Shown: positions 32,010 to 47,567 of the stretch, in pieces
How positions within the stretch are numbered: position 1 is the first letter of the stretch
Layout of the letters: every line of letters begins with the position of its first letter
Source of the DNA: Thermoplasmata archaeon
GTDB taxonomy: Archaea > Thermoplasmatota > Thermoplasmata > Lutacidiplasmatales > UBA184
DNA length: 64,000 nt
Direction of reading: 5' to 3'
Assembly: GCA_035623855.1 (NCBI GenBank)
Contig: DASPSQ010000009.1
Location: forward strand, 26,413 to 90,412
Translations under genes and position numbers: made by a program
The notes under the pieces: model-generated
What the model was told of the DNA's origin: nothing
Databases searched by the model: none
Seen by the model: the letters and a program-made list of their open reading frames with translations, nothing else

Positions 32010-32082
32010 GCCGCGGTGGCTCAGCTGGTAGAGCGGCTCCTTGGTAAGGAGCAGGTCGAGGGTTCAAACCCCTCCCGCGGCT
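32010..32082 (+). tRNA. tRNA-Thr (anticodon GGU)
   Basis: 73-nt cloverleaf: GCCGCGG acceptor pairs with CCGCGGC, D-arm GCUC-AGCUGGUA-GAGC, anticodon arm GCUCC-UUGGUAA-GGAGC, T-arm GAGGG-UUCAAAC-CCCUC, discriminator U. No CCA is encoded. Confidence 0.85.
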
Positions 32083-32101
32083 GGAATTTCACTCAGCTCA
32101 C

Positions 32102-33163
32102 ATGCTAATTTGGGGGCGATCCCTTCCGTTCTTCGTGAACCGGGGTCGGACCGTTTCTCGTCTCCTTAAATCGCGAGAGCCATCTGTCCGCTGGAAGGCA
32201 CGGGTTCGGGTGCTCGGAGAAGAACCCGACTCGAGGCCAATCCGCGAACTCCGCGAGCAGATTCGGGTCTCGCCTCGGACCAGAGCGTTACTGGCGACGC
32301 GGAGAAGGCCCGGGCGTCGAGCCCCCGTCGGAATCTATCACAAGTGGCTGGGAACGCATTGGGCTCTGGCCCAGCTCGCAGACGTCGGGTATCCTTCGGG
32401 AGATGAATCACTCGAGCCGCTGGCTCGGCAAGCCTTGGACCTGTGGCTTCAGCCAGCTTACTTTCGCGAGTTTGACGCTTCCACGGAAGAGGAAGCCACT
32501 CGTCGGCATGACGCGGTCCCGAGGTTGGCGGGACGTTATCGACGATGTGCATCGCAACAGGGCAACGCACTGTTCTACTGCACCACGCTTGGCTTGGCAC
32601 CCGACGCGTGCGACCAGCTGGCGGAGCGACTGATGCACTGGCAGTGGCCCGACGGGGGCTGGAACTGCGACCGAAATCCCAACGCCGACACATCGTCCTT
32701 TGGTGAGACGCTCACGCCGATGTTGGGTCTCTTTGCCTACGGAACGGCCCGCCGAAAGACGGTCGCTATTCAAGCGGCGCGTCGGGCCAGCGAAGTATTC
32801 CTGCGCCGCCGTCTCTATAAGCGAGTCTCTGACGGCCACGTCATCCATTGGGAGTTTGCCGAACTCCACTACCCGCTCTACTGGCACTACGATGTCCTCG
32901 GCGCGCTGAAAGTCCTTGGTCCGATGGCACAGTTGGATGACCCTCGATGTGACGACGGGTTGAATCTGCTCGAGTCCAAGGAGCTGCCCGGCGGCGGTTG
33001 GCGGGCCGATCGCCGCTACTACGACCTCCCGGGCGAGCGACCCCGAAGGGGAACCGATCGGGTCCGTTGGGGGCGCCTGGGACGTAACACGATGAACGAA
33101 TGGGTGACCGCAGACGCTCTGTCGGTCTTGCGCGCCGCCGGTCGCCTTTCCCCGGGGGAGTGA
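32102..33163 (+). CDS. Alpha/alpha-toroid (prenyltransferase / terpene-cyclase-like repeat) protein, hypothetical function
   Basis: 353 aa with repeated aromatic-GGW motifs (WQWPDGGWNCD, LPGGGWRAD) characteristic of squalene-cyclase/prenyltransferase beta-type repeats. First cassette after the tRNA. Confidence 0.45.
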   Translation: MLIWGRSLPFFVNRGRTVSRLLKSREPSVRWKARVRVLGEEPDSRPIRELREQIRVSPRTRALLATRRRPGRRAPVGIYHKWLGTHWALAQLADVGYPSGDESLEPLARQALDLWLQPAYFREFDASTEEEATRRHDAVPRLAGRYRRCASQQGNALFYCTTLGLAPDACDQLAERLMHWQWPDGGWNCDRNPNADTSSFGETLTPMLGLFAYGTARRKTVAIQAARRASEVFLRRRLYKRVSDGHVIHWEFAELHYPLYWHYDVLGALKVLGPMAQLDDPRCDDGLNLLESKELPGGGWRADRRYYDLPGERPRRGTDRVRWGRLGRNTMNEWVTADALSVLRAAGRLSPGE

Positions 33164-33291
33164 GGCTCGTCGCCGGCTCGTCTCCATCGACGTGCCACCA
33201 AGTCGAGCCGCGAGACCAGGCCTAGGTTTCCGTGCTCGTTGCACGAGAAATCGGTGTCGATTCTCTCCGGAGGATCATTCGAGCCCGGGAA

Positions 33292-33329
33292 GGGATTCGA
33301 ACCAAAAGGGAAGGTCCTCCCCCGGCCTC
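33292..33329 (+). repeat. Degenerate copy R1 of tRNA-Thr 3'-end-derived repeat
   Basis: GGGATTCGAACC..aaaaggga..TCCTCCCCCGGCCTC, same architecture as the other copies (inverted T-arm-like arm plus CTCCCGCGGCTG-like tail). Confidence 0.5.
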
Positions 33330-33402
33330 AGGCAGACGGACTTTCCAGTGCCACAATCCACACTTCTCAGAAACTTTAATTGTAGGATATCCATAACAGC
33401 AA

Positions 33403-33627
33403 TTGAATCATACCATGGCGGCAACGACCATCACCGTTTCTCAGGAGACTCGAAAGCTGTTGGAGGGTCTGAAGACCGGCGGTGCCACCTACGACGACGT
33501 GATTCGCGGCCTGATCATCGCCCATCCCACTCAACTCACGCTGGCGGAGTTGGCCCGGCGGATTCGAGAGGGGAAGCCGCATCCTATCGAGGAGCTCATC
33601 GCTCGCAGCCGAGAACAGCCCTACTGA
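33403..33627 (+). CDS. Putative antitoxin (ribbon-helix-helix-like)
   Basis: 74 aa. N-terminal TITVSQETRKLLEGLK fits a beta-strand then helix RHH pattern. It sits immediately upstream of a RelE/ParE-like ORF (8-nt gap). Confidence 0.4.
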   Translation: MNHTMAATTITVSQETRKLLEGLKTGGATYDDVIRGLIIAHPTQLTLAELARRIREGKPHPIEELIARSREQPY

Positions 33628-33634
33628 GGGAACC

Positions 33635-33979
33635 GTGCCGTTCCGCCTCGAGAGCGTCGAGGAGGCGGACACCGAGTTTCTCGCCCTTCCTCCCGATGTT
33701 CGAGAAGTGTTCATCGCGGCGTTTCGAGAGCTGGCTGCCAGCGATACTCCGCTCGCCCGGGGACCCGGGTGGTACACGGAGGAGCTGCGACAACGCCAGC
33801 GTGTCGCACCACAAGGGCTGTTCTCGCTCCACGTCCGGAATCTCTGGAGAGGGGTCTACTTTCGGCGCGGCAGGTCCCTGATCTTCATCGCTTTCGGATT
33901 CCGACTGCCCGAGTTCTACGACAAACTGAAACGGTTGCGGAAGGTAATCTCGACTCCAGCCCTTTCGGGGCGGATTTGA
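33635..33979 (+). CDS. Putative RelE/ParE-family toxin
   Basis: 114 aa, basic, small-toxin-like sequence pattern (LWRGVYFRRGRSLIFIAFGFRLPEFYD). Its stop codon lies inside repeat R2. Confidence 0.4.
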   Translation: MPFRLESVEEADTEFLALPPDVREVFIAAFRELAASDTPLARGPGWYTEELRQRQRVAPQGLFSLHVRNLWRGVYFRRGRSLIFIAFGFRLPEFYDKLKRLRKVISTPALSGRI

Positions 33980-34008
33980 ACCCTTCGTTCAATCCCCTCC
34001 CGCGGCTG
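33972..34008 (+). repeat. Copy R2 of tRNA-Thr 3'-end-derived repeat
   Basis: GGATTTGAACCCttcGTTCAATCCCCTCCCGCGGCTG; the last 14 nt are identical to the tRNA-Thr T-stem/acceptor 3' strand. Confidence 0.7.
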
Positions 34009-34310
34009 TGTTCCCCCCCGAAAACTCCTTTCGAGAGGGCAACCTCCAGAGACGAGCTCAGCCGTTCGGGAAGTACCGATCCGTGGTGGCCGCTGGGACA
34101 TGCCCGGAATCCTCGGTTTGCGGGCAGGTGGCCAAGAATCGATTTTCGAGGGTGTCGCCGGATCCCCCCTCTTCCTCGGGGGAACGTAGCCTGTCCTCGG
34201 CATGGACGGGCCGCGGCTTGGGGGGCCGAACCCCATCGCCGCTCCAGACGCGGGTCAAAGCCCGTCGGTTCGAAAGTCGGGGATCTCCTCGACCGTACGA
34301 AGGTGAGGTC

Positions 34311-35000
34311 CTACCAGGTCTTCTGGAGGACTTCGGCGACCGAGGGCAGGTCACGAAGTCTAACCTTAGCTCCCGTCTGGAGGGGACCCTGATCCCATCC
34401 CCTCTCTACCGTGAGGAACGCTTCTCTCCAGGTCGACGGTTCCGCCCCCCGAAGATGCAGAATGTGCTCATACCCAAACCGGTTTGCGTTCGGGGCATCC
34501 GCCCACAACATGAGCACAGGTCCTCCGGCCTCTACGATGGAACGGATCGTGGGGCCCACAACATCTGCCGGATACAAGGTGTGTAGGCGATGCGCCCCCG
34601 ACAGAACCAGAATCGGCCTCGGTCCTTCGCGCGGAAGTCGGGAGAGCATATCCTGAGTCTGCTGCGGGAGGCGGAGGAACTCGGCAAAAGAACGGACGGA
34701 CTCGTCCCCCTCATCCGACCGTATGAGGTAACCGAGCGCGACATTGCCGACAGGTTCGTTCCTCTCGAGTACTTTCGGAGCGACGACAATGAGCCTATCC
34801 TGCGGAATGAGCGAGGTCTTCAGCAGATCTGTATCTTCGAGCACTTCGCCCTCCAGCTGGACATGCCCCCAAAGGAAACCGCCCGGATGCCCGAACACCA
34901 GGCCATAGGCGACCCAGTTGAGCAAGGAGCGACCACTGCCACAGATAATCACGGAGGTGCGCGGCTCAAACAATCCTTGGGGTGGCGCGGTAGGGACCAT
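34311..35000 (-). CDS. Hypothetical protein (possibly degenerate RecA/KaiC-superfamily fold)
   Basis: 229-aa ORF in the correct codon frame. IICGSGRSLLNW resembles a Walker-A loop but lacks the lysine. No confident family assignment. Confidence 0.35.
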   Translation of the reverse strand: MVPTAPPQGLFEPRTSVIICGSGRSLLNWVAYGLVFGHPGGFLWGHVQLEGEVLEDTDLLKTSLIPQDRLIVVAPKVLERNEPVGNVALGYLIRSDEGDESVRSFAEFLRLPQQTQDMLSRLPREGPRPILVLSGAHRLHTLYPADVVGPTIRSIVEAGGPVLMLWADAPNANRFGYEHILHLRGAEPSTWREAFLTVERGWDQGPLQTGAKVRLRDLPSVAEVLQKTW

Positions 35001-35340
35001 CGAGCCCTCTTTCTTGATCCGGAAGGAGATGATGTCCCTTCCTCTTGTCTCTATTGCCCCAAGCGGTGTCGGCCCGAGCGATTGCCTCGCGGCAGTCGCA
35101 AGTGCATCGGAGGCAGTCCAAGTTGATCACACGCGCACCCTGAGGTTCTCGCGGGAACCGATCTGCTCCGAAGGGACGTGAACCAAGATGTCGGTCCCTC
35201 CCACAGCTGGAATTTCCTTCAGCCTTCAGGATATCTCGGAACTTGGAAGGCTTCCCCGAGGCCAAACTTTGCACGTCCCCAACATGGGCCGAGAAGAAAC
35301 CCTTTCGTGGACTTGGGCGGTACCGAGCCCAGAATTCGGT

Positions 35341-35964
35341 ATGCTAAGAACCAATCGAGCGATCACGAGGCTCTCAGGACTTCCGCGATACTCGACAAAG
35401 GAGCTGTCCCCCCAATCTTGGCGAGACTTTGAGAGCCTCTTTCTGAGGAAAAGCGAAGGTGGAGGTTGCTGGTGCATGATCTTTCATCATCTCGGTCGAC
35501 TTCCGAAGACCGAAAAGGGAGGGATGACCCCGGCCCGAGTCGCCAGGTGCCGCAAAGAGAAGCGAACCTTGGTGTGGAAGGGTGCCTCCCACGGCATCCT
35601 GGTCTACGCGAACACAGAACCGGTCGGGTGGTGCCAATACGGCCCGAAGGAAGAGCTACCTCGAATCGATGCGGGGACGCTCTACAGGAAGCTCGCAATC
35701 GACCACGATCGCCAGCGACTTTGGAGGATTACATGCTTCTGGGTCGACCGGAAGCATCGCAATCGGGGGGTTGCAAGCACAGCCTTGGGTGCAATCCTCG
35801 AATCGATCAAAAGAAAGGGCGGAGGACTTGTCGAAGCGTATCCAGCCAAAGTAAAGGGATTCCCGGCCGACTGGATGGGCACCTGGTCCATGTTCCGGAA
35901 GGAAGGATTCGAAATCGTGGCGCCCTACGGTGCATCCAACGTGCTCGTACGGCGGACGGTGTAA
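35341..35964 (+). CDS. GNAT-family N-acetyltransferase
   Basis: ITCFWVDRKHRNRGVASTALGAILESIKRKG matches GNAT motif A (R/Q-x-x-G-x-G/A). Start uncertain; 35188 and 35284 are also in frame. Confidence 0.6.
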   Translation: MLRTNRAITRLSGLPRYSTKELSPQSWRDFESLFLRKSEGGGCWCMIFHHLGRLPKTEKGGMTPARVARCRKEKRTLVWKGASHGILVYANTEPVGWCQYGPKEELPRIDAGTLYRKLAIDHDRQRLWRITCFWVDRKHRNRGVASTALGAILESIKRKGGGLVEAYPAKVKGFPADWMGTWSMFRKEGFEIVAPYGASNVLVRRTV

Positions 35965-36028
35965 CACGGGTCAAGGCCGGCAGCGAATCTTGGCCCAGGC
36001 CAGCGCGGGCAGGGGCACCCGCATCGCT

Positions 36029-36062
36029 GTGAACCCTCAGTTCAAACTCCTCCCCCGCCCGG
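36029..36062 (+). repeat. Degenerate copy R3 of tRNA-Thr 3'-end-derived repeat
   Basis: GTGAACCCTCAGTTCAAACTCCTCCCCCGCCCGG; left arm truncated, tail mutated. Confidence 0.55.
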
Positions 36063-36164
36063 AAAATCTCGTACGGGATGCGCCCTCGTATTGACTTCGC
36101 CGTGCCAACGGCTTGAGCTATCGCGACTGGCGGAGTAATTAGGGCCGGCTCATCATCCCAAGCC

Positions 36165-38369
36165 GTGGCGTCGCCGCCCCTCACCCCAGAACGGGTGTTC
36201 GGCAGCCCCGCGTTGTCGGGGCCGGTGGCTCGGGGCGTTGAGGTCTCGCCGGACGGTCGCTACGTCACCTTCCTGGCTCCCGAGCCGACGAATCAGTTCA
36301 AGCTCGATCTGTGGATTGCGCCGGCGGATGGCGGCGAAGCTCGTCTCCTGGTCTCTGGTGAGGCCGTCGAACCATCTGACCAGAGCCTAAACGAGGCCGA
36401 GAAGAGCCGACGAGAACGGATGCGACTGGCGGCGGTCTCCGGCGTGTTGACCTATCACTGGGACGAACAGTCCAGGATGCTGCTGATTCCCGCCGGCGGC
36501 GAACTCTACACCGCTGACGCCCGGACCGGCCGTGTGGCGAGGCTCAACACCGGCGGCCCCGGTGCCACCGACGCTCGAATCTCTCCGTTGGGCCGTTACG
36601 TGAGCTATGTGCGTGACCAGAACCTCTATGTGATCGACTTCGACGATGGCCGGGAGCGAGCACTGACGACGGAGGGGCAGGGGCCGATCAGCTTCGGTGT
36701 CGCCGAGTTTGTCGCCCAGGAAGAGATGGGCCGCTACACCGGCTATTGGTGGGCGCCGAACGACGACGCCATCGCGTACGCAAGGATTGACGAGAGCCCG
36801 GTTGAGATTGTCCCGCGGCTCGAGGTTGCCGTGGAGGGCGCCCGGGTCTCATCCCAACGGTATCCCCGCGCCGGCACGGCCAACGCCCTGGTCAGCCTGT
36901 ACGTGCGGCGGATGACGGACGACGGGTCGCCGGTGCTCGTCGACTTGGGCACCGCTACCGACGTCTATCTAGCGCGAGTTCACTGGTCGGCCGACGGGCG
37001 CGATCTCTATGTGGAACGCGAGAGCCGTGATCAGAAGAGGCTCGACCTGCTTCGAGTCGACCCCGCCACCGGAGACTCCGTCGTAATCCTCAGCGAAACT
37101 CGATCACCTTGGGTCATGCTCACCCACGATTTTCGTGCCTTGAAGGATGGTGATTTCATTTGGGCGTCCGAGCGCTCCGGTTCCAATCAGTTGTATCTCT
37201 ACCATGGCGACGGAACCCTGGTGCGGTCCATTACTGCCGGCAACGCCCCGGTGGTGCGTGGCGCCCTCGGCGCCGGCGCCGAGGCGCCGGGCTTAGTGGG
37301 TGTCGACGAGGAAGAGGGGGTTCTCTACTTCATGGCCTCTCGCGAGACCCCGATCGAGCGCCAACTCTATTCGGTCTCCTACCGCGCCCCGGCAGAACCC
37401 GTGGCCGTCACCCAAGGTCACGGGTGGTGGACCGCAGTGATGCCCCAGTCTGCGACCGTGTTCGTGGGCTACTACTCCGACCCAGTAACGCCACCGCAGA
37501 CCGCCCTACTCCGCGCCGACGGCCAGCGGTTGCGGTGGGTCGAACAGAACGCCCTCGACGCCCACCACCCGTACGCCCCCTACGCCGCGCGCTATCCGCT
37601 GCCGGAGTTTGGCACTCTGAAATCTTCGGATGGCCAGGACCTTTACTACGTCCTACAAAAGCCCGTCAACTTCGATCCGTCCCGCCGATATCCGGTGATC
37701 GTTAGAGTCTACGGAGGGCCCGCCGCGCAGTTTGTGACGCGTGCCTGGCCGGATGTGAGGGAGAAGCTCTTCCTCGAGGCCGGCTTCCTTGTCTTCTGGC
37801 TCGACAATCGCGGGTCGGCCAATCGCGACTCCACTTTCGAGGGGGCGATTGCCGGCCGACTAGGGTCGGTGGAGGTTGATGACCAGATCGTCGGGTTGGA
37901 CTGGCTCAAATCGCTGCCCTTCGTGCGCGCCGACAAGATCGGTGTCTGCGGCTGGTCCTACGGGGGATTCATGGCGCTGCGCATGCTCACCGACCCGCGG
38001 GCCCATCTCGCGGCCGGCGTGGCCGGCGCCCCGGTCACCGACTGGCGTCAGTACGACACCCATTACACGGAGCGCTACTTGGGAGACCCCACGGTCAACG
38101 CCGCCGCGTACGACCACTCAGCAGTCATCCCGCGCCTTGGTGCCTTGTCCGGCCGCCTGCTCCTCATTCATGGGATGGCCGACGACAACGTTCCACTCGG
38201 GAATTCTATCGCGGTGATGGCGGCCCTCCAGGCCCAGGGAACGCTCTTCGACCTGATGCTCTATCCCGGTGAGCGTCACGGCGTTCAGGGTGTAGGTCGA
38301 CAACTCCAGCTCTGGCGAACTCTGCTCGGGTTCTTCGTACGGGAACTGGGCGGGAACGCAGGTCTCTGA
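36165..38369 (+). CDS. S9-family serine peptidase (dipeptidyl-peptidase IV / prolyl oligopeptidase type)
   Basis: 734 aa. N-terminal beta-propeller region, then alpha/beta-hydrolase domain with GWSYGG (catalytic Ser), GMADDNV (Asp) and GERHG (His). Confidence 0.8.
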   Translation: MASPPLTPERVFGSPALSGPVARGVEVSPDGRYVTFLAPEPTNQFKLDLWIAPADGGEARLLVSGEAVEPSDQSLNEAEKSRRERMRLAAVSGVLTYHWDEQSRMLLIPAGGELYTADARTGRVARLNTGGPGATDARISPLGRYVSYVRDQNLYVIDFDDGRERALTTEGQGPISFGVAEFVAQEEMGRYTGYWWAPNDDAIAYARIDESPVEIVPRLEVAVEGARVSSQRYPRAGTANALVSLYVRRMTDDGSPVLVDLGTATDVYLARVHWSADGRDLYVERESRDQKRLDLLRVDPATGDSVVILSETRSPWVMLTHDFRALKDGDFIWASERSGSNQLYLYHGDGTLVRSITAGNAPVVRGALGAGAEAPGLVGVDEEEGVLYFMASRETPIERQLYSVSYRAPAEPVAVTQGHGWWTAVMPQSATVFVGYYSDPVTPPQTALLRADGQRLRWVEQNALDAHHPYAPYAARYPLPEFGTLKSSDGQDLYYVLQKPVNFDPSRRYPVIVRVYGGPAAQFVTRAWPDVREKLFLEAGFLVFWLDNRGSANRDSTFEGAIAGRLGSVEVDDQIVGLDWLKSLPFVRADKIGVCGWSYGGFMALRMLTDPRAHLAAGVAGAPVTDWRQYDTHYTERYLGDPTVNAAAYDHSAVIPRLGALSGRLLLIHGMADDNVPLGNSIAVMAALQAQGTLFDLMLYPGERHGVQGVGRQLQLWRTLLGFFVRELGGNAGL

Positions 38370-38571
38370 GGACCGGCCGTCGCGAGGAGGAGGGCTTATC
38401 CAATTTCTCGATTGACGTTGGGGAAGTTTTCGTCGGGTCCGAGCGAACGCTTCTGTCATCCGGGTGAGCCTCCGCCCCGAGCACGTCGATGAGGGAGCGA
38501 GGCTCGATTTTCACCGCCATCCGGGCGGGGGGTACTCGGTCCACCGTGACGGATCGCCGGCGTCTTCTCAT

Positions 38572-38608
38572 GGATTTGAACCCCCAGTTCAAACTCCTCC
38601 CGCGGCTG
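38572..38608 (+). repeat. Copy R4 of tRNA-Thr 3'-end-derived repeat
   Basis: GGATTTGAACCCCCAGTTCAAACTCCTCCCGCGGCTG; 7-bp inverted arms TTTGAAC/GTTCAAA flank a 5-nt spacer. Confidence 0.7.
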
Positions 38609-38844
38609 ATATTCTCTCGTAAGCTGGCCCACGGTGGACCCCCAGCGGTTCCTCGACAGTGGGATTTCATCAGGGGCCTGGCGCTAGCAGATCAGCCGAG
38701 TTAACGACGAGACTCCGCGCCAAAGGGGGTGTGATTGGGACGGACCCGTACTCCCCGGCCATGATCTCCCGGATGCTTCCGAAACATCTATCAGGAGGGA
38801 GCTTACTCACGGCGCAGTCCACCCGCGGATTGGAAGGTAGAAAG

Positions 38845-39531
38845 ATGGGGTTCATCGACGATCTGAGCGTGGTCGTCGATCTGCTGGTGCTGGTTGCGGT
38901 AGTGCTCTTCTACACGGGGTTCCTCGTGTGGTTTCACACGCTCTACCGAAAGGATCCGGCCCGAGCTTACACGCACCTCCGAGGCGGAGGGTTCATCCTG
39001 GCGCTCCTGGGTGGTCTCATCGGATTGTTCGCCATCTGGGGTGAGTTCGTTTGGCCCCTCACGATCCAAACCCCCGGGGGCGCGCTGACCGTTTACAATG
39101 TCTTCTTCTTCGACCCGTTGCTCTTGCTAGCCGTTCTGCTTGTCGGATTCGGAGTCGCGGTGTGGGCCAAGCTCCCCACGCATTTCATCGGGGTGATGGG
39201 CATCGTGAGCGGCGGCGGAGTGATTTACTACGGGTACTTGGGGTACCAAAACAGCCTCACGCTAGACCACCTCGAGACGTACCTCCTGTTCCTGGTTTGG
39301 GGCACAGTGTCCATCGCATCCTACGGCGCGACGCTGTTTGTGGACTGGTTCGTGATCGGGCCGCAGAACCCGAGCGTCGGTCCCCTCGCTTCGGGCCCGA
39401 CGCCCGCGTTCCCGCGGATGTGGGCCGTGCTCATCTTCCTCTTCCTCATCGTGGTCGTGCTCGCCGGGGTCGCCACGATTTGGTACGGGCAGAACATCAC
39501 CTGGGGTCATCTACGAGGGCTAGGCCCCTAG
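38845..39531 (+). CDS. Integral membrane protein (DUF981-like, ~6 TM)
   Basis: 228 aa and very hydrophobic, with regularly spaced Gly/aromatic TM segments. Its stop codon abuts repeat R5. Confidence 0.5.
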   Translation: MGFIDDLSVVVDLLVLVAVVLFYTGFLVWFHTLYRKDPARAYTHLRGGGFILALLGGLIGLFAIWGEFVWPLTIQTPGGALTVYNVFFFDPLLLLAVLLVGFGVAVWAKLPTHFIGVMGIVSGGGVIYYGYLGYQNSLTLDHLETYLLFLVWGTVSIASYGATLFVDWFVIGPQNPSVGPLASGPTPAFPRMWAVLIFLFLIVVVLAGVATIWYGQNITWGHLRGLGP

Positions 39532-39568
39532 GGATTCGAACCACGGTGTGAGTCCCTCCCGCGGCTGG
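39531..39568 (+). repeat. Copy R5 of tRNA-Thr 3'-end-derived repeat
   Basis: GGGATTCGAACCacggtgtgaGTCCCTCCCGCGGCTGGAAT; the tail matches the tRNA-Thr 3' end including the downstream GGAAT. Confidence 0.7.
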
Positions 39569-39748
39569 AATCTTCCTCGGCCCACAGGCCAGCTTGGGTC
39601 AAGTTCGGTTGCTTTCACCCATCACTGCGAGGAGACCCCGAGCTAGGCCGAGAAGTTACCCCTCCGCAGAGGGTGGGAGCGAAGTCAGTCGCCCTCTGGG
39701 GGAATGGCAGGCTCCATCCGGAAGAGTGGAAGCGGAAAGTCCTGTAGG

Positions 39749-40780
39749 TCAGGGCGGAACCGAAAGGGGTGGGTCTGCGACCTTCAGGAGTTGCTTACCG
39801 AAATTCTCGCCGCTGAACAGCCGCGCGAGGGTCTTCGGCGCTTTCTCGAGCCCGACCGCGATGTCCACTTTCTGCTTGAGGCGTCCTTCGGCATGCCAGC
39901 CGGCGAGGACCGGCGCCGCTTCCGCAAACCGTGCCGCGTAATCGAGTATGATGAACCCCTCCATCCGGCCCCGCTTCGTGATCAGGAGAGGATAGTTCCT
40001 CAGCGGCCGGAACTCCCGACTCACGTAGTCGGATATCGCTCCGCACATCACGATCCGGGCGTGCAGGTTGATCCGGCCCAGCACCTCGTCGAGGATCTCG
40101 CCGCCGACGTTGTCGAAGTAGACATCGATTCCCTGCGGGCACGTCTCAGAAAGTCGGGGGCCGACTTTCTCCGCGCGATAATCGATAGCGGCATCGAATC
40201 CGGCTTCCTTCCGAAGCCAATCGCACTTCGCGGGACCTCCGGCGATACCGACGACCCGCGCTCCACGGATCTTGGCGATCTGTCCCGCGATCGACCCGAC
40301 GGCGCCCGCGGCGCTCGAGACCACGAACGTCTCCCCCGCTTGAACCCTCGCGATATCGACGACTCCGAAGTAGGCGGTCATCCCGGTGATGCCGAAGAGG
40401 CTCAGCGCCAACTCGGGAGGGATACGGGGAGGAACTCTCTGGACCGTGTTCAGGTCGCTCCCGCCGACGACGACGTAGTCTTGCCAACCGGTCAAGCCCC
40501 TCACCAGCTCGCCGACCTTGAAGCCTGCGCTCCGCGACTCGACCACCTGGCCGATCCCGGATGCGCGCATCACCCCGCCGATCGGAACCTTTGGAACGTA
40601 AGTGTCCACTTTCATCCATCCCATTTGCGTGGGGTCGCAGGAGAGCCATAGGGTCCTGAGGAGAATCTCTCCGTCCTTCGGCGGCGGGATCGAGGTCTCT
40701 ACCCACTTGAAGTTCTGTTCGCCGAACATACCTTCGGGTCGGCTCACGAGCAGCCACTGACGGTTCGGTCGACTCGCCAT
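39749..40780 (-). CDS. NADP-dependent oxidoreductase, MDR superfamily (YncB/CurA/PTGR-type alkenal/quinone reductase)
   Basis: 343 aa from MASRPNRQW. AAGAVGSIAGQIAKIRGARVVGIAGG nucleotide-binding motif and the overall PTGR/LTB4DH layout. Confidence 0.75.
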   Translation of the reverse strand: MASRPNRQWLLVSRPEGMFGEQNFKWVETSIPPPKDGEILLRTLWLSCDPTQMGWMKVDTYVPKVPIGGVMRASGIGQVVESRSAGFKVGELVRGLTGWQDYVVVGGSDLNTVQRVPPRIPPELALSLFGITGMTAYFGVVDIARVQAGETFVVSSAAGAVGSIAGQIAKIRGARVVGIAGGPAKCDWLRKEAGFDAAIDYRAEKVGPRLSETCPQGIDVYFDNVGGEILDEVLGRINLHARIVMCGAISDYVSREFRPLRNYPLLITKRGRMEGFIILDYAARFAEAAPVLAGWHAEGRLKQKVDIAVGLEKAPKTLARLFSGENFGKQLLKVADPPLSVPP

Positions 40781-40939
40781 CGGACCCCCTCCTCGAAGAA
40801 TCGAGACGGTTTCGTTGCCCGGAGCACCGAAGGCCAGCATAAGTCCGGCGCCCGAACCTCGAGTTGACGTAGCCCGGGTCGATCGCTGGGATTCTTCAAC
40901 CCCCGAAGGGTCGGGGGAGATTTTCACGTGACGGGGTGT

Positions 40940-41464
40940 TTAGGGAGGCCGCCTGTTCTTCGTGGACCGCTGGGCTCTGATCGGTCGACCTAGGATCCAT
41001 GCGCGATCAACGTACCGCATCGATCGGTACAGCCTGATCGCGGGCCGGTTCCTCGGCTGAACCTCTAGCCGGATCCAGTTGTATCCTCGCTGTTGGAACC
41101 GGCGCTCCACTTCCTCGAGGAGTCGACTTCCGACCCCGTGTCTCCGGAACCCCGGCGAAACATAGAGTTCGTAGATGATGCAAGGGCGGGCCCCTCGAAC
41201 GACCACCATGCGTTCGGCGGGCGAAAGAGGTGCCGGCAAGCCCACGACGAACCCGGCGGGTCGTCCACGACCGGCCTCCGCGAGCAGGAAAAGGCCCCGT
41301 CGTATTCGAGTTTGGCGAAGCAGCGACCGAGCGTAGGTGCCGCCAAAACCCGAGGCCGGGCGGTGCCGCAGTTGAGGGTCGAGGCGTGCCGCCTCGCGTG
41401 CATAGCTCACGCAGGATCGAGCCACGAAGGGGAAGTCGTTCGGGCGGTAAGGACGGATCTGCAC
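40940..41464 (-). CDS. GNAT-family N-acetyltransferase
   Basis: 174 aa. YVSPGFRRHGVGSRLLEEV matches GNAT motif A. Confidence 0.65.
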   Translation of the reverse strand: MQIRPYRPNDFPFVARSCVSYAREAARLDPQLRHRPASGFGGTYARSLLRQTRIRRGLFLLAEAGRGRPAGFVVGLPAPLSPAERMVVVRGARPCIIYELYVSPGFRRHGVGSRLLEEVERRFQQRGYNWIRLEVQPRNRPAIRLYRSMRYVDRAWILGRPIRAQRSTKNRRPP

Positions 41465-41593
41465 GGTCGCTCGGTAGCCTCGGATAGACCGCCATCAGGA
41501 AAAAGCACCCGATTTCCGTGCATGTATGGTAGTAGAGCGAACCTCGGCTGCCCGGGTCCGTCGGCACGCGTTTCTCACGGCTTGGGACTCGCA

Positions 41594-41626
41594 ACTCAAA
41601 TCCCTCCCGCGCGCGACCTTCCCCGT
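41594..41626 (+). repeat. Degenerate copy R6 of tRNA-Thr 3'-end-derived repeat
   Basis: GGGACTCGCAACTCAAATCCCTCCCGCGCGCGA. Confidence 0.5.
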
Positions 41627-41682
41627 TTCGCTCCACGCGTTTAGCCGGCCGAGTGCCAGGGAGAAGGAATGGACCTTCAAGG

Positions 41683-41958
41683 TCAGGTCAGATCGCGGAG
41701 GCTCTCACGAATCTGAGTAAGGACCTCCTGCCGACGGGTCTTGGGCGCGTCCATGAACGCCTCCAGCATTCCCTCTAGGACCATCACGGAGGCCTTCTCG
41801 AGCTGGGCGTGCACCGCCAGGATCTGGCGGAGGACCTGGGTATCATCCTTGCCATCATCGACCATCCTGATGATTCCGTCGATATGGCCCTTGGCCGACA
41901 CGAGACGTTCCCGGACGGCAACCTGCGGTGACTCCGGCATTCCACCACGCCATCCCAT
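41683..41958 (-). CDS. CsoR/RcnR/FrmR-family metal-sensing transcriptional repressor (DUF156)
   Basis: 91 aa. VSAKGHIDGIIRMV...QILAVHAQLEKAS is the conserved CsoR-family helix pattern with a C-H-x-C/H-type metal-site spacing. Confidence 0.75.
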   Translation of the reverse strand: MGWRGGMPESPQVAVRERLVSAKGHIDGIIRMVDDGKDDTQVLRQILAVHAQLEKASVMVLEGMLEAFMDAPKTRRQEVLTQIRESLRDLT

Positions 41959-42028
41959 CCGGTAGCATTAATCCTTCCCCTCAAAGCACCGCTCCGCCGG
42001 AGGGCTTATAAATCCCCGCCCCCATGGT

Positions 42029-42053
42029 CCCCTATCCCCCCCCGGGGGGTAGG
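42029..42053. promoter_or_regulatory. Candidate CsoR-family operator (G/C-tract inverted repeat) overlapping the mntH start region
   Basis: TCCCCTATCCCCCCCGGGGGGTAGGGA is an AT-flanked C7/G6 inverted repeat of the type bound by CsoR/RcnR. It lies between the divergent csoR-like and mntH genes; TTATAAAT is at 42006-42013. Confidence 0.5.
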
Positions 42054-42064
42054 GACTGGCCTCC

Positions 42065-43465
42065 GTGTCAGATTCGACAGATCCTGCGGGGAGCACGGTC
42101 CGTAGTGCGACGGCGAATCCGTCCGGTGGCCGGGGGCAGATCGCAGCGGTTCAGAGGAGCGTCACGAACGCGCTCGCGCGGTCTGGCCGGATGGGGTTCG
42201 TCTCGCGGATTTACTTCCGGTACCGGCGGTTCTCGAAGCATCTTGCGATTCTTGCCGCGGTGATCGGCCCCGGTGTCATCGTGATGGTGGCCGATAACGA
42301 CGCCGGCGGGATCACGACGTACATGCTCTCTGGCGCGTACTATCGGTACAGTTTCATTTGGATCGTCTTGTTGCTCGGGCCGGTCGCGTACGTCTGCCAG
42401 GAGATGACCGTCCGACTGGGGGTCATGACCAAACGCGGTCACGCCCAAGCGATTTTCGAGGCGTTCGGCCCGTTCTGGGGATGGTTCTCGCTGAGCGACC
42501 TCACGCTCACCGATTGCCTCACCATCACGACCGAGTTCATCGGAATGACGATGGCCATGGCCGTGTTCGGAATCCCTCCCCTTTTCACCGAGATCGTCGT
42601 GATCACGTTCATCATGCTCATGCTGATCAACGGCCGGTACTGGACCTGGGAAAAGATCGTCCTCGCCATCTGCGCCGTGAACATGATCTACGTCCCGGTG
42701 GTCTTCTTCATCCATCCCAACGTCAGCGACATCTTCCGCACGGGGGTCGTCCCCGGCTTCCCCGAGGGGCTTGGCGGGCCGGTCATCTTCCTCCTCATGG
42801 CGACGATCGGAACCACGATTGCGCCCTGGATGATCTTCTTCCAGCAGAGCTCCGTGGTCGATAAGGGGCTCAAGAAGCGGGACGTTCCGTACGCCCGTTG
42901 GGACACCGCGATCGGATCGACGTTCACGGTCATCACCGCGGTCGCGCTCATCATCATCGCGACGCTCTTCTTTGGAGGGGACATGAGCCTCACCTCCGCT
43001 GGGCAGGCGGCGGGCCTGCTGATGGCGATTCACCCCTGGGTGGGCACGATCCTGGCCATCGGGCTGTTTGACGCCGGCCTCATCGGAGCATTGTCCGTCT
43101 CGTTGGCCAGCTCCTGGGCCGTGGGCGAAGTCTTCGGATGGTCCCACTCACTCAACGACCGCCTAGGGCAGGCGAAGTGGTTCAACGTGTTCCGTCTGAG
43201 CATCATGTGCATCGCCGGTAGCATCGTTCTGATTCCCGGGGCCCCGCTCGGGTTGATCACCCTCTTCGTCCAGGTCATCGCCGTGACCTTGCTGCCGGCC
43301 GCGTTGGTCTTCTTGATCGTGCTCCTGAACCAAGAGGAGCTGGTGGGAAGCTACAAGAACACGCGAGCCCAGAACATCATGGCCGGGACCATCGTTGGCG
43401 CCCTTCTAGCCCTCTCGACGCTCTATGCGGTCGGGACCATCTTACCGAAGCTGTTTGGAGGCTGA
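42065..43465 (+). CDS. mntH: Nramp-family divalent metal cation transporter
   Basis: 466 aa, ~11-12 TM. GPGVIVMVADNDAGGITTY matches the Nramp DPGN-like metal-site motif region; the MntH layout is conserved. Confidence 0.85.
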   Translation: MSDSTDPAGSTVRSATANPSGGRGQIAAVQRSVTNALARSGRMGFVSRIYFRYRRFSKHLAILAAVIGPGVIVMVADNDAGGITTYMLSGAYYRYSFIWIVLLLGPVAYVCQEMTVRLGVMTKRGHAQAIFEAFGPFWGWFSLSDLTLTDCLTITTEFIGMTMAMAVFGIPPLFTEIVVITFIMLMLINGRYWTWEKIVLAICAVNMIYVPVVFFIHPNVSDIFRTGVVPGFPEGLGGPVIFLLMATIGTTIAPWMIFFQQSSVVDKGLKKRDVPYARWDTAIGSTFTVITAVALIIIATLFFGGDMSLTSAGQAAGLLMAIHPWVGTILAIGLFDAGLIGALSVSLASSWAVGEVFGWSHSLNDRLGQAKWFNVFRLSIMCIAGSIVLIPGAPLGLITLFVQVIAVTLLPAALVFLIVLLNQEELVGSYKNTRAQNIMAGTIVGALLALSTLYAVGTILPKLFGG

Positions 43466-43471
43466 CGAAGC

Positions 43472-43645
43472 ATGACGGTGTTCCACGACGCAGCCGAGAA
43501 GCTACGCGAGATCAACCGGACCTATGCCGTCCCTCGAATTCGCATGACCGCCGGGACGAAGGCCGTCCTGATCCTCCTTCGGATCTATCTGCTCACTCTG
43601 GTGAGCTTGCTCCTCTATTCCTTGCTCACCCGTGCCGGGGTCTAG
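43472..43645 (+). CDS. Small hydrophobic ORF downstream of mntH (hypothetical, 57 aa)
   Basis: ATG 6 nt after the mntH stop. Encodes MTVFHDAAEKLREINRTYAVPRIRMTAGTKAVLILLRIYLLTLVSLLLYSLLTRAGV, with one predicted TM helix. It falls below the 60-aa cutoff of the supplied ORF track. Confidence 0.3.
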   Translation: MTVFHDAAEKLREINRTYAVPRIRMTAGTKAVLILLRIYLLTLVSLLLYSLLTRAGV

Positions 43646-43685
43646 GGAGGGGGGCGAGGGTGGCGCGCCGGAGGTCGCGTGGAAA

Positions 43686-45053
43686 ATGATTTCGTCCAAC
43701 GATCCCGAGAGGAAGACCGCGCCCCCAAGGGGGGCGAATGGGGGTAGTCCGGCAAGTTCGGCGGCCCGCATCCGAGAGATCGAGGAGGCCCAGTATCTCG
43801 AGGTGAGCGAGCTCGTGGATCGCAAGGTCCGAACGGAGGCCGGCGCGACGCTCGGGCGGCTCCAGGATTTCATCTTTACCGATGACCCGAAGTACGCCGA
43901 AGTGACCCACTTGGTGGTTCGCCGGGCGTTCGGCCGACCACCGTTGAAGGTGCCATGGTCCCAGGTTCTCCGCATGGACCCTTCGGAGACGGTCGCGAGG
44001 GATCTCGCCGAGGGGACCGAGTACGAGAGCATCGAAGATACCGGCGAGCTGTTGCTCCTGCGCGACCGGATTCTCGACAAACGCATTCTCGATACCCGAG
44101 GCTTGGGGATTGACGTGGTCTACGACATCCAATTGCTAAGGGCGGGCAACCAGCTCTTCATCGTGGCGGCGGTGACGGGTCCGGAGGCCCGGCGGCGTCG
44201 CCTGGGTCTCTGGGGAAAGGTCGCCGCTTCCGTATCCGAGGGCCACGTCCCCGAGGAGCGGATTCCTTGGAAGTACGTTCAGCCCATCGGCCCCGAACTC
44301 ACGAGCACCGCGGGCGACGTGCGACTCACGGTCACTCGGGAAGCTCTGGGCAGGATTCCCCCGGTCGATGTGGCCGATATCCTCGAGGAGCTCAGCCGCG
44401 AGGAGCGGCTCACCCTCTTCAACGCCCTCGACACCAGGGCAGCGGCCCTCGCCCTGGAAGCGACGGAGCCCCGGGTGCAGCGGGAGATCATTGCGGACAC
44501 CGAGGCAGCCCGGCTCGGGCAGATCATCGTTCACCTTTCCCCCGTGGAGATCGCCGACATCGTCACCATCCTCCCCGACGACGACGCCCGCGAGCTGCTG
44601 GGGATGCTGAAGGGAGAGGTCGCCACGAAGGTGCGGTCAATCGTCGAGGAGCACGAAGTGCCCGCCCTCACCCTCGCGGTCCACACGTATCTCGAGTTTC
44701 CCGGGGAGACCCCGGTCGAGGAAGCGTTCGCGAGGTTCCGTCGGGAGGCTCCGAAGTGCCTCGTTACGATGTACATCTACGTGGTCGATGCGGACCGGCA
44801 CCTTCGAGGAGTTGTCGACATCAATGAGCTCCTGCAAGCCGACCCCGTGCGGCCGCTCGAGGAAATCATGACCCAAGGACTGGTCACCGTCTCCCCGCAA
44901 ACGAGCTGGACTCAAGTGCTCGAGCTCTTCCGCAAGTACCGGTTTCGGGCGATTCCCGTGGTGGACGACTCTCGGAAGATTCTCGGAGTGATTCGCGAGA
45001 AGGACGCCTTCGTCCTCGAGGACGAGGAAGTGCGCTCGAAGCGTCGCCTCTAG
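43686..45053 (+). CDS. Soluble MgtE-N / CBS-pair domain protein with N-terminal PRC-barrel-like region (no pore domain)
   Basis: MgtE-N-like helical region (DVADILEELSREERLTLFNALD...IADIVTILPDDDARELL) followed by two CBS motifs; no TM segments. Start set at MISSND. Confidence 0.6.
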   Translation: MISSNDPERKTAPPRGANGGSPASSAARIREIEEAQYLEVSELVDRKVRTEAGATLGRLQDFIFTDDPKYAEVTHLVVRRAFGRPPLKVPWSQVLRMDPSETVARDLAEGTEYESIEDTGELLLLRDRILDKRILDTRGLGIDVVYDIQLLRAGNQLFIVAAVTGPEARRRRLGLWGKVAASVSEGHVPEERIPWKYVQPIGPELTSTAGDVRLTVTREALGRIPPVDVADILEELSREERLTLFNALDTRAAALALEATEPRVQREIIADTEAARLGQIIVHLSPVEIADIVTILPDDDARELLGMLKGEVATKVRSIVEEHEVPALTLAVHTYLEFPGETPVEEAFARFRREAPKCLVTMYIYVVDADRHLRGVVDINELLQADPVRPLEEIMTQGLVTVSPQTSWTQVLELFRKYRFRAIPVVDDSRKILGVIREKDAFVLEDEEVRSKRRL

Positions 45054-45100
45054 CGAGGCCTCTGAACCCGGACTTCATGCCCTTCCCTCGTCTCCCTTCG

Positions 45101-46726: not shown

Positions 46727-46744
46727 GGTACCACCGCGTTCGAA

Positions 46745-46768
46745 TATAACTGACTACAAGTTAGTATA
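46745..46768. promoter_or_regulatory. Candidate TetR operator / divergent promoter (imperfect palindrome in AT-rich spacer)
   Basis: TATAACTGACTACAAGTTAGTATA followed by AAATCTTTAA, in the 130-bp AT-rich region between the divergently oriented MFS and TetR genes. Confidence 0.45.
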
Positions 46769-46857
46769 AAATCTTTAAGTCATTTAATGTGCGACAGGAA
46801 AGAGATTATACGCTGGGAAGGGGTTCTCCGTTCCGACGGCGAGGGCGTCGGCCGGTC

Positions 46858-47460: not shown

Positions 47461-47528
47461 GTCCGCGTTCGATGAGAACGGATACCCAGACGGAAGTTCC
47501 GAAGTCGGGAAAGCAGCTTCAGCGAGTG

Positions 47529-47567
47529 AGGGATTTGAACCCTCAGTTCACCTCCATTCCGCGGTTG
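47529..47567 (+). repeat. Copy R7 (last) of tRNA-Thr 3'-end-derived repeat
   Basis: GGGATTTGAACCCTCAGTTCACCTCCATTCCGCGGTTGA. Confidence 0.6.

What the first reader, a model, noticed from the sequence alone, without database searches (positions are those of the whole stretch)
38572..38608. Repeat unit has an unusual back-to-back T-arm architecture (7-bp inverted arms, 5-nt spacer) reminiscent of a recombinase core site
The best-preserved copies read GGATTTGAAC-CCCCA-GTTCAAAC-TCCTCCCGCGGCTG. The left arm is the reverse complement of a tRNA T-loop/T-stem (GGGTTCAAATCC) and the right arm is the forward T-loop plus acceptor 3' strand. The result is two 7-bp inverted half-sites (TTTGAAC/GTTCAAA) around a 5-6 nt spacer. 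That is the geometry of a tyrosine-recombinase core (Xer/dif-like or attC-like). It is not a fragment of a functional tRNA, because the 5' arm cannot pair as a T-stem. The tRNA gene's own T-arm (GAGGG-TTCAAAC-CCCTC) is palindromic and may be the ancestral target.
Basis: seen in the sequence. Interest (0 to 1): 0.6.

Follow-up and report, generated by a model that had tools for sequence, protein, structure and literature searches.

The report
tRNA-Thr-anchored gene cassette junction site
The 37-base unit is one of about eight recombination-type junction sites, copied from the end of a threonine tRNA gene, that separate swappable one-to-four-gene cassettes in an archaeal (Thermoplasmata) chromosome, an arrangement reminiscent of integrons.

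Summary
38572-38608 reads exactly as described. It belongs to a family of 8 same-strand copies of the 3' end of tRNA-Thr(GGT) (32010-32082), spread over 32.0-47.6 kb, and each copy lies between gene modules.

About 34 distinct sites in related Thermoplasmata contigs share a fixed ~40-nt layout: GGAGGGAyTTGAACC, then ~12 nt, then CCCTCCCGCGGCT. In "type A" sites the middle is GTTCAAA, which gives the back-to-back T-arm palindrome. In "type B" sites it is not.

The same cassettes recur in different positions and next to different partners. One example is a 680-bp RelE-type toxin-antitoxin module. Between two contigs, identity jumps from 84% to 99% exactly at the 12-nt core CCTCCCGCGGCT, not at the palindrome's 5-nt spacer. 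The core matches whichever tRNA anchors the array. Cassettes are more alike (84-88% nt) than the flanking core genes (68-73%).

The sites are therefore att-like cassette junctions. The palindrome is the arm carried by the cassette, not the crossover core. The geometry fits neither dif nor attC, and no covariation supports a folded structure.

No integrase lies in the window. A Thermoplasmata-specific tyrosine integrase sits inside an analogous tRNA-Cys array and is only a candidate.

I rate this a new variant of a known kind.

The parts
32010..32082 (+). Intact tRNA-Thr(GGT). It anchors the array, and its last 12-13 nt (32071-32083, CCTCCCGCGGCTG) form the shared core.
   Evidence: ARAGORN. 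Rfam tRNA, 69.8 bits. Sequence.
32084..33290 (+). Cassette 1: 353-aa ORF at 32102-33163 with no Pfam family. It starts with the trailer GGAATTTCACTCAGC.
   Evidence: The same cassette, 84% nt identical over its full length, lies in second position in L126/L132, preceded there by a type-A site.
33291..33326 (+). Type-B junction site: AGGGATTCGAACC..GGTCCTCCCCCGGC, with a partly decayed core.
33327..33971 (+). Cassette 2: a toxin-antitoxin module. The antitoxin is DUF7557-like (33415-33627). The toxin has a RelE fold (33635-33979), and its stop codon lies inside the next site.
   Evidence: Pfam. AlphaFold2 pLDDT 76.5 with Foldseek hits to RelE/YoeB/HigB. A module of 679-681 bp core-to-core recurs in at least 9 contexts.
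33972..34008 (+). Type-A junction site: GGATTTGAACCCTTCGTTCAATCCCCTCCCGCGGCTG.
34009..35171 (-). Cassette 3: 229-aa ORF at 34311-35000 on the minus strand, with no Pfam family.
   Evidence: A homologue with 74.5% aa identity lies in the L129 array.
35172..35208 (+). Type-B junction site: AGGGACGTGAACC..GGTCCCTCCCACAGCTG. The core carries two G>A changes.
35209..36024 (+). Cassette 4: GNAT acetyltransferase (ORF 35188-35964; the true start is probably further downstream).
   Evidence: Pfam. The same trailer, GGAATTTCCTTCAGCC, directly follows tRNA-Thr in L137.
36025..36061 (+). Decayed type-A junction site: CGCTGTGAACCCTCAGTTCAAACTCCTCCCCCGCCCG.
36062..38571 (+). Cassette 5: DPP-IV / S9 peptidase (36165-38369).
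   Evidence: Pfam.
38572..38608 (+). The finding: the best-preserved type-A junction site. Left arm GGATTTGAAC, spacer CCCCA, right arm GTTCAAAC, core (T)CCTCCCGCGGCTG.
38609..39530 (+). Cassette 6: DUF981 membrane protein (likely start 38846, stop 39531).
   Evidence: Pfam.
39531..39567 (+). Type-B junction site: GGGATTCGAACCACGGTGTGAGTCCCTCCCGCGGCTG, with a trailer (GGAATC...) resembling the tRNA's own.
39568..41578 (-). Module 7: zinc-type oxidoreductase (39749-40927) and GNAT (40940-41464), both on the minus strand.
   Evidence: Pfam.
41579..41611 (+). Strongly decayed site: ..CAACTCAAATCCCTCCCGCGCGCG. It is the positional counterpart of the type-A site that precedes Nramp in L125.
   Evidence: E = 0.13, weak.
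41612..47528 (.). Distal modules: Nramp, MgtE_N/CBS protein, MFS transporter (minus strand) and TetR regulator. The Nramp-MgtE block is 79-83% nt identical to blocks at the distal ends of arrays in L011/L133, L125 and L150.
47529..47566 (+). Distal type-A site with a decayed core: GGGATTTGAACCCTCAGTTCACCTCCATTCCGCGGTTG.
   Evidence: E = 8e-5.

Best explanation
The unit is a cassette junction (att-type) site in a gene-cassette array anchored on the 3' end of tRNA-Thr(GGT).

Layout. Each site has two parts. The first is an arm belonging to the cassette on its left: GGAGGGAyTTGAACC plus about 12 nt. In type A those 12 nt repeat the tRNA's T loop and so create the palindrome. The second part is a 12-13-nt core, CCTCCCGCGGCT(G), identical to the T-stem and acceptor 3' strand of the tRNA. 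The T-rich trailer that follows the core belongs to the next cassette.

Proposed mechanism. A site-specific recombinase encoded outside the array, most likely a tyrosine integrase, exchanges strands within the core. It acts between the tRNA or an existing junction and a free, presumably circular, cassette carrying arm-core-trailer. Cassettes are thereby inserted, stacked and reshuffled, and the tRNA gene is always rebuilt.

Shown here: the copies and their single orientation; modules bounded by them; the same modules in other positions and with other partners; a sharp similarity breakpoint at the core; the core matching the resident tRNA; and cassettes more conserved than the flanking core genes.

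Inferred: the enzyme, the circular intermediate, tRNA-proximal insertion, the arm acting as a protein-binding half-site, and the trailer acting as a tRNA terminator.
For: - All 8 copies are on the + strand, intergenic and downstream of the intact tRNA, whatever the orientation of the genes between them.
- Among the 14 metagenome contigs found with the type-A pattern and 2 Thermoplasmata MAG contigs, 10 carry tRNA-Thr(GGT) followed on the same strand by type-A/B sites; the others show the same same-strand sites without the tRNA in reach.
- The toxin-antitoxin cassette measures 679-681 bp core-to-core. It follows the tRNA directly (L131, L138), a type-B site (window, L125 twice, L126, L130/L134) or a type-A site (L128).
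- Cassette 1 is first in the window but second in L126, behind an extra 3.1-kb cassette.
- L129 versus L132: 84.4% identity over the 455 nt upstream of the core, 99.4% over the 180 nt downstream.
- In the tRNA-Thr(CGT) array of L144 the same cassette is flanked by CCCTCCAGTGGCT, the 3' end of that tRNA.
- Cassettes are 84-88% nt identical between contigs, against 68-73% for the flanking ECH and Nop5 genes.
- GC falls from about 0.68 upstream of the tRNA to 0.58-0.65 in the array.
- Cassette content is accessory: RelE toxin-antitoxin, GNATs, regulators, peptidases, transporters.
- In L162-L171 a tyrosine integrase with conserved R..K..HxxR..H..Y residues lies between two direct copies of the tRNA-Cys 3' core CCCTCCCTTGGCT, in an analogous array.
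Against: - No integrase or other recombinase was found in the 64-kb window or in any tRNA-Thr array locus.
- The link between the candidate integrase family and the tRNA-Thr arrays rests only on analogy. Other members of that family sit in contexts with no detectable sites.
- No free attP-type copy was found on viral contigs.
- No circular cassette or empty site was observed directly.
- Several window sites have decayed cores (33291, 35172, 36025, 41579, 47529), so part of this array may be fossil.
- The role of the conserved left arm is not established.
Confidence: 0.75

Rival explanations
1. The palindrome itself is the recombinase core. Two inverted half-sites bind a Xer-like or Cre-like dimer, and strand exchange happens at the 5-7-nt spacer (a 13-7-13 or 7-5-7 geometry).
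For: The inverted arms are real and in register (77.9% paired). The spacer CCTTA is conserved in 16 of 21 type-A sites, as an overlap region shared between partner sites would be. Tyrosine recombinases commonly use stem sequences of tRNA genes as inverted binding sites; this is established knowledge (Williams 2002, listed in the reference list of PMC8371274).
Against: The L129/L132 breakpoint lies to the right of the right arm, and there are mismatches between the spacer and the core. Type-B sites lack the right arm yet bound the same cassettes. The tRNA has CGAGG where the spacer would be, so tRNA x site exchange at the spacer lacks overlap identity. The geometry differs from dif, which is 11-6-11 (PMC8371274). 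Spacer conservation can also be explained by common descent.
Confidence: 0.08
2. The sites work as folded single strands, like integron attC sites. The hairpin is recognised by shape, and the cassettes form a true archaeal integron variant.
For: The array looks like an integron: short integrase-less cassettes, a toxin-antitoxin cassette, GNATs, and palindromic sites with a variable middle. The 38572 copy folds better than shuffled sequence (z = -2.98).
Against: There is no covariation: observed values equal the shuffled controls. The other copies, including all type-B sites, fold no better than shuffles. The R boxes do not fit RYYYAAC/GTTRRRY. The sites are about 40 nt rather than 57-141 nt. 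No IntI was found. Genes lie in both orientations. The archaeal integrons described so far use canonical attC/attI, and that paper does not mention tRNA (PMC9668308).
Confidence: 0.07
3. The array is a graveyard. Full-size integrative elements integrated one after another into tRNA-Thr and then lost their integrases and most genes (CIME-like decay). The cassettes are no longer mobile, and the shared modules reflect vertical descent and homologous recombination.
For: Tandem accretion and decay at tRNA genes is well documented (PMC5704250; tycheposon islands, 10.1101/2020.12.28.424599). Five of the 8 window sites have degenerate cores. No integrase lies in the arrays.
Against: A 680-bp module with identical boundaries occurs in at least 9 different contexts and twice within one array (L125). 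Random decay is unlikely to produce that. Cassettes are much more similar than flanking core genes. The identity switch is sharp, from 84% to 99.4% at a 12-nt core. Arms of fixed length are conserved across about 34 sites.
Confidence: 0.12
4. The units act at the RNA level as tRNA-like 3' elements (a T-arm mimic plus an acceptor 3' strand). They would serve as processing or termination signals for cassette transcripts.
For: Every site has a GGAGGG...CCCTCC inverted repeat followed by the acceptor 3' strand and a T-rich trailer, which resembles a tRNA 3' end with an archaeal terminator.
Against: Site orientation follows the tRNA and not the adjacent genes (minus-strand cassettes at 34311-35000 and 39749-41464). 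No 5' acceptor strand is consistently present. There is no Rfam or ARAGORN hit, no covariation, and poor folding for most copies. An RNA role does not explain the cassette reshuffling.
Confidence: 0.04

Closest known systems
attL/attR junctions of tyrosine-integrase elements integrated at the 3' end of tRNA genes, including tandem accretion and CIMEs (PMC5704250; Williams 2002)
   Same: Direct repeats identical to the tRNA 3' segment. An intact tRNA sits at one end. Successive modules are stacked at the same site, and they are flanked by att sites without their own integrase.
   Different: The modules here are very small (0.68-2.5 kb, 1-2 genes) and numerous (6-8 per array). They recur as precise units in many contexts. 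They carry a conserved, fixed-length arm containing an inverted T-arm copy. No parent element encoding an integrase is present in the tRNA-Thr arrays.
Tycheposon-seeded genomic islands of Prochlorococcus (10.1101/2020.12.28.424599)
   Same: tRNA-anchored islands that grow as new arrivals push older ones distally. Partial tRNA copies are scattered through the island, and the cargo is adaptive.
   Different: Tycheposons carry their own integrase and replication genes, and the partial tRNAs mark decayed elements. Here no hallmark genes are present, and the units behave like autonomous cassettes. The host is an archaeon.
Integron cassette arrays (attI/attC/IntI), including the archaeal integrons of PMC9668308
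   Same: A platform site followed by many short integrase-less cassettes, each ending in an imperfect palindromic site. Toxin-antitoxin and GNAT cassettes are present, and cassette order differs between relatives.
   Different: The platform site is a tRNA 3' end rather than attI. The sites are about 40 nt with a 12-13-nt conserved core instead of structure-defined attC sites of 57-141 nt. There are no R/L boxes, no adjacent IntI and no evidence of single-strand folding. Genes lie in both orientations.
Xer/dif sites and Xer-dependent modules (archaeal XerA/dif, PMC8371274)
   Same: A short imperfect palindrome that could bind a recombinase dimer.
   Different: dif has 11-nt arms, a 6-nt spacer and one copy per chromosome, with the crossover at the spacer edges. 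Here the arms are 7-14 nt, the spacer is 5 nt, there are 8 copies next to a tRNA, and the exchange maps outside the palindrome.

Membership tests
tRNA gene or tRNA pseudogene | A cloverleaf with acceptor, D, anticodon and T arms that tRNA models can detect | tested here: not met
   ARAGORN finds only the intact tRNA-Thr at 32010-32082. An Rfam search at E <= 1 over 30-42 kb gives only that tRNA. The copies hold only the last 13-22 nt of the tRNA.
att junction of a tRNA-targeting site-specific integrase | Direct repeats identical to the 3' segment of an intact tRNA gene, in the same orientation, bounding inserted DNA | tested here: met
   Searches show that the core CCTCCCGCGGCT is shared by the tRNA and the sites, all on the tRNA strand.
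att junction of a tRNA-targeting site-specific integrase | The exchange point lies inside the shared identity segment | tested here: met
   The similarity breakpoint (84.4% to 99.4%) falls at the core in L129 versus L132. The core changes to CCCTCCAGTGGCT in the tRNA-Thr(CGT) array.
att junction of a tRNA-targeting site-specific integrase | A cognate integrase gene in the inserted element or the genome | tested here: inconclusive
   None is present in the window or the tRNA-Thr arrays. A tyrosine integrase lies between tRNA-Cys core copies in L162-L171. The whole genomes could not be reached.
Xer/dif site | [quoted passage not shown] | tested here: not met
   The arms are 7 nt perfect and up to 14 nt imperfect, around a 5-nt spacer. 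The centre is odd-length, so a 6-nt spacer is impossible with symmetric arms.
Xer/dif site | A single site per replicon, with the crossover at the spacer edges | tested here: not met
   There are 8 copies in 16 kb. The breakpoint lies outside the palindrome.
Integron attC site | R''/R' boxes RYYYAAC...GTTRRRY, L boxes with extrahelical bases, and a length of 57-141 bp | tested here: not met
   TTTGAAC and GTTCAAA each miss the consensus at 2 positions. The palindrome is 19-33 nt and the whole site about 40 nt. The consensus values come from my own knowledge of the integron literature.
Integron attC site | Structure conserved rather than sequence (folded bottom strand); adjacent IntI and attI | tested here: not met
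   There is no covariation beyond the shuffled controls. Most copies fold no better than shuffles. No integrase is in the window.
CIME / tandem accretion (PMC5704250) | An element flanked by att sites that lacks integration and transfer genes | tested here: met
   Pfam annotation of the cassettes.
CIME / tandem accretion (PMC5704250) | Origin by decay of a larger integrase-bearing element | not testable with these tools
   No integrase pseudogenes were seen. The precise 680-bp recurrent unit argues against case-by-case decay.
Tycheposon | Hallmark tyrosine or serine recombinase plus replication (primase/helicase) genes within the element | tested here: not met
   None appears among the annotated cassette genes.
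tRNA-derived MITE/SINE | Dispersed copies in either orientation, with terminal inverted repeats and target duplications | tested here: not met
   All copies are on one strand, in one 16-kb block next to the parent tRNA, with none elsewhere in the 64 kb.

The most novel reading that the evidence does not exclude
A lineage of soil and peat Thermoplasmata has an integron-like gene-capture platform. The 3' end of a tRNA gene (Thr, and Cys or Leu in other lineages) plays the role of attI. Short integrase-less cassettes carry a ~40-nt tRNA-mimicking site (inverted T-arm arm plus acceptor core). A lineage-specific tyrosine integrase encoded elsewhere inserts, excises and reshuffles them in trans.
Probability: 0.4. 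Interest if true: 0.8.

Novelty: new variant of a known kind. Interest (0 to 1): 0.6.

Why it matters
If cassettes of one or two genes are really moved in trans at a tRNA 3' end, then these archaea have a gene-capture system that works like an integron but is built from different parts: a tRNA gene as the docking site and a tRNA-mimicking cassette site.

That would give a concrete mechanism for the fast turnover of accessory genes in uncultured Thermoplasmata. It would supply a defined ~40-nt substrate and a candidate integrase family for biochemical tests. It would also give a sequence signature, GGAGGGAyTTGAACC-N12-tRNA 3' core, for finding such arrays in other archaea.

There is a practical point for annotation as well. 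Repeated tRNA 3' fragments with an inverted T arm mark cassette boundaries, not tRNA pseudogenes.

Tried and rejected
- Viral-contig scans for the core (CCCTCCCGCGGCTG; 112 hits) and for the type-A centre (TTGAACCCTTAGTTCA; 7 hits) gave only chance matches and no attP.
- A genome-collection scan with the loose type-A pattern returned 12 loci. Only 2 were real, both Thermoplasmata MAGs.
- Exact look-ups of the window's ECH protein found no record.
- Pfam annotation of about 50 window ORFs and about 20 ORFs from related arrays found no integrase, small serine recombinase or transposase.
- More distant toxin-antitoxin loci (L139-L142, L146) sit next to tRNA-Cys, tRNA-Leu or tRNA-Thr. They have no type-A arms and no clear repeats, apart from one type-B-like site in L142.
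- I followed the integrase next to an A-like site in L139/L140. The family is large (455 hits), but three further contexts (L159, L161, L173-L182) showed no tRNA-core repeats and no conserved upstream sequence. A search for the family on viral contigs gave one distant hit.
- The RNA minihelix idea (a 5' acceptor strand upstream of the hairpin) fits only a few copies, such as L125-2495. I dropped it.
- I looked for an inverted repeat between the arm and the trailer, or flanking the core. AAATC...GATTT brackets the 12-nt core in many sites. The spacing is too long for a standard overlap region, and the motif is not universal, so the question stays open.
- Sequence searches for the 114-aa toxin in Pfam, NCBIfam and PDB gave nothing. 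Only the predicted fold identified it.

Full report
**1. What is at the coordinates.**
The window reads GGATTTGAACCCCCAGTTCAAACTCCTCCCGCGGCTG at 38572-38608. Within 3 mismatches this 37-mer is unique in the window. Its last 22 nt match the 3' end of the tRNA-Thr(GGT) gene at 32010-32082 at 21 of 22 positions. Its first 12 nt are the reverse complement of a tRNA T arm. TTTGAAC and GTTCAAA form a perfect 7-nt inverted repeat around a 5-nt spacer. As single-stranded DNA the unit folds at -6.5 kcal/mol, z = -2.98.

**2. The unit belongs to a family.**
Repeat finding and two profile searches identify the tRNA plus 8 further copies. They start at 33291, 33972, 35172, 36025, 38572, 39531, 41579 (weak) and 47529. 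All are on the + strand, all lie between 32.0 and 47.6 kb, and there are no others in the 64 kb. ARAGORN and Rfam call none of them a tRNA.

Two forms exist.
- Type A (33972, 36025, 38572, 47529) has the back-to-back T-arm palindrome.
- Type B (33291, 35172, 39531) keeps the left arm (AGGGAyTCGAACC) at the same distance from the core, but has an unrelated ~10 nt where the right arm would be.

**3. What the copies separate.**
Each copy lies between gene modules:
- a 353-aa protein of unknown family;
- a two-gene toxin-antitoxin pair;
- a 229-aa protein on the minus strand;
- a GNAT;
- a DPP-IV/S9 peptidase;
- a DUF981 membrane protein;
- an oxidoreductase plus GNAT on the minus strand;
- then Nramp, an MgtE_N/CBS protein, MFS and TetR.

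The 114-aa partner of the DUF7557 protein has no sequence-family hit. Its predicted structure (pLDDT 76.5) matches RelE, YoeB and HigB toxins.

Upstream of the tRNA lie core genes, Nop5 and an enoyl-CoA hydratase, at GC about 0.68. GC in the array drops to 0.58-0.65. Nop5 and the protein-database hits place the window in a Thermoplasmata archaeon MAG.

**4. Relatives.**
A genome scan found type-A sites in two Thermoplasmata MAGs. A metagenome scan found 14 contigs. Ten of these contigs carry tRNA-Thr(GGT) followed on the same strand by type-A and type-B sites spaced 0.6-3.8 kb apart. One contig (L125) has 6 sites with a near-exact core in 11 kb (7 by profile search). L127 is the same sequence as the window.

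About 34 distinct non-tRNA sites share a fixed-length layout: GGAGGGAyTTGAACC, about 12 nt, then (T)CCCTCCCGCGGCT. In the 21 type-A sites, 7-13 of 14 palindrome positions pair. The spacer is CCTTA in 16 of them.

**5. Evidence that the modules are mobile cassettes and that the junction is the core.**
- (a) The toxin-antitoxin module measures 679-681 bp core-to-core everywhere. It always begins right after ...CGCGGCT with C(C/T)nrGACAAC and always ends in a type-A arm. Its upstream neighbour varies: the tRNA itself (L131, L138), a type-B site (window, L125 twice, L126, L130/L134, L150) or a type-A site (L128).
- (b) Cassette 1 of the window is 84% nt identical over its full length to a cassette that lies second in L126/L132, behind an extra 3.1-kb cassette.
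- (c) Between L129 and L132, the toxin-antitoxin cassette is 84.4% identical over 455 nt, with mismatches up to 2 nt before the core and inside the right arm. The 180 nt after the core are 99.4% identical. The exchange point is therefore in CCTCCCGCGGCT, not in the palindrome spacer.
- (d) In L144 the same cassette sits at tRNA-Thr(CGT), and the flanking cores there read CCCTCCAGTGGCT, the end of that tRNA.
- (e) Cassettes are 84-88% nt identical between contigs whose flanking ECH and Nop5 genes are only 68-73% identical.

Together these results indicate site-specific exchange at a short core and horizontal spread of individual cassettes.

**6. The palindrome.**
The register is real: 77.9% of cells pair, against 24-52% when slid. 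Every covariation measure, however, equals the shuffled control. Apart from 38572, the copies fold no better than shuffled sequence, and this includes all type-B sites.

The complementarity therefore comes from two conserved sequence blocks, not from selection for a fold. The left arm is conserved in type-B sites that have no complementary partner, so it behaves as a sequence motif of the cassette-borne half of the site. I infer that it binds the recombinase or an accessory protein. This is not shown.

The T-rich trailers (GATTTTCC, GGAATTTC) that start each cassette would terminate tRNA transcription when a cassette lands next to the tRNA. This is also an inference.

**7. The enzyme.**
No integrase, small serine recombinase or transposase is encoded in the window or in any tRNA-Thr array locus examined. 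No attP-like copy was found on viral contigs.

In more distant Thermoplasmata, a 321-aa tyrosine integrase lies 320 bp downstream of a decayed A-like site and 1.2 kb upstream of the toxin-antitoxin pair (L139/L140). The family is large and conserved in Thermoplasmata, with 455 hits and invariant R..K..HxxR..H..Y residues.

In L162-L171, a family member lies inside a cassette bounded by direct copies of the tRNA-Cys 3' core CCCTCCCTTGGCT, within an array anchored on tRNA-Cys. The arms there are of a third type. This makes the family a reasonable candidate for CCCTCCCnnGGCT cores.

Three other genomic contexts of the family showed no such sites. The connection to the tRNA-Thr arrays remains an inference.

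**8. Comparison with known systems.**
The sites meet the defining features of att junctions at tRNA 3' ends, except that no cognate integrase has been shown. The integrase-less modules fit the CIME definition (PMC5704250). The growth of an island from a tRNA resembles tycheposon islands (10.1101/2020.12.28.424599).

They do not meet dif geometry, which is 11-6-11 and single copy (PMC8371274). They also do not meet attC features. The archaeal integrons described so far use canonical attC/attI, and that paper does not mention tRNA (PMC9668308).

Full-text searches found no description of tRNA-anchored cassette arrays in Thermoplasmata.

What is unusual is the number and small size of the units, their precise recurrence, and the conserved arm containing an inverted T arm. 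I classify this as a new variant of a known kind. The integron-like reading is still open, at about 0.4.

**9. Verdict.**

The best explanation is a cassette junction site of a tRNA-Thr-anchored array, with exchange in the 12-13-nt core by a trans-acting integrase that has not yet been identified. Confidence is 0.75.

Noticed in passing
window 33415-33979; L131, L138, L141, L142, L144, L146: The toxin-antitoxin pair (DUF7557-like antitoxin plus RelE-fold toxin, no Pfam family for the toxin) is the gene module found most often directly next to a tRNA. It sits after tRNA-Thr(GGT), tRNA-Thr(CGT), tRNA-Cys(GCA) and tRNA-Leu(CAG) in different Thermoplasmata lineages. The toxin family has 107 clusters at 90% identity.
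   Followed up: partly
L162-L171 (e.g. L166 140-200, L170 230-290): Contigs that carry the same integrase lose similarity to one another immediately upstream of the integrase start, just beyond the motif GGTGCGCGGTCCATTGCAC, which contains a 5-bp inverted repeat GGTGC/GCACC. The sequence beyond that point differs in at least five ways. This may be a second kind of junction, or the boundary of variable cargo.
   Followed up: no
window 47687-49681, 49773-53066, 54588-56702: Three paralogous adenylate/guanylate-cyclase-TPR genes lie just beyond the last recognisable site. Homologues (68-73% nt) are bona fide cassettes between sites in L125, L129 and L150. The array may once have extended further, with sites now decayed beyond recognition.
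   Followed up: partly
window 32102-33163; L173 15051-16040: The 353-aa first-cassette protein has no Pfam family. It has a 29%-identical homologue (E = 4e-20, faint SQHop_cyclase_C) that is also the first gene next to a tRNA, here tRNA-Leu(CAA), in contigs carrying the candidate integrase family.
   Followed up: partly
window 20389-20477 (-): ARAGORN calls an 89-nt tRNA-Gly(CCC) here. The sequence does not look like a normal tRNA and lies inside long ORFs, so it is probably a false positive or would need an intron. I did not check it with Rfam.
   Followed up: no
window 35197-35208 and 36049-36061: The decayed cores differ from the consensus mainly at the CG dinucleotides (CCCACAGCTG; CCCCCGCCCG). 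This suggests mutational decay of inactive sites rather than a distinct site type.
   Followed up: no
L142 10545-10570 and 11823-11865: Downstream of tRNA-Leu(CAG) and the toxin-antitoxin pair there is a lone 3' fragment of a different tRNA (GGTTCGAATCCCCGCCAGG). After it comes a type-B-like arm (GGGATTTGAACC) followed by a degenerate tRNA-Leu 3' end. The inverted T-arm arm therefore also occurs in arrays on other tRNAs.
   Followed up: partly
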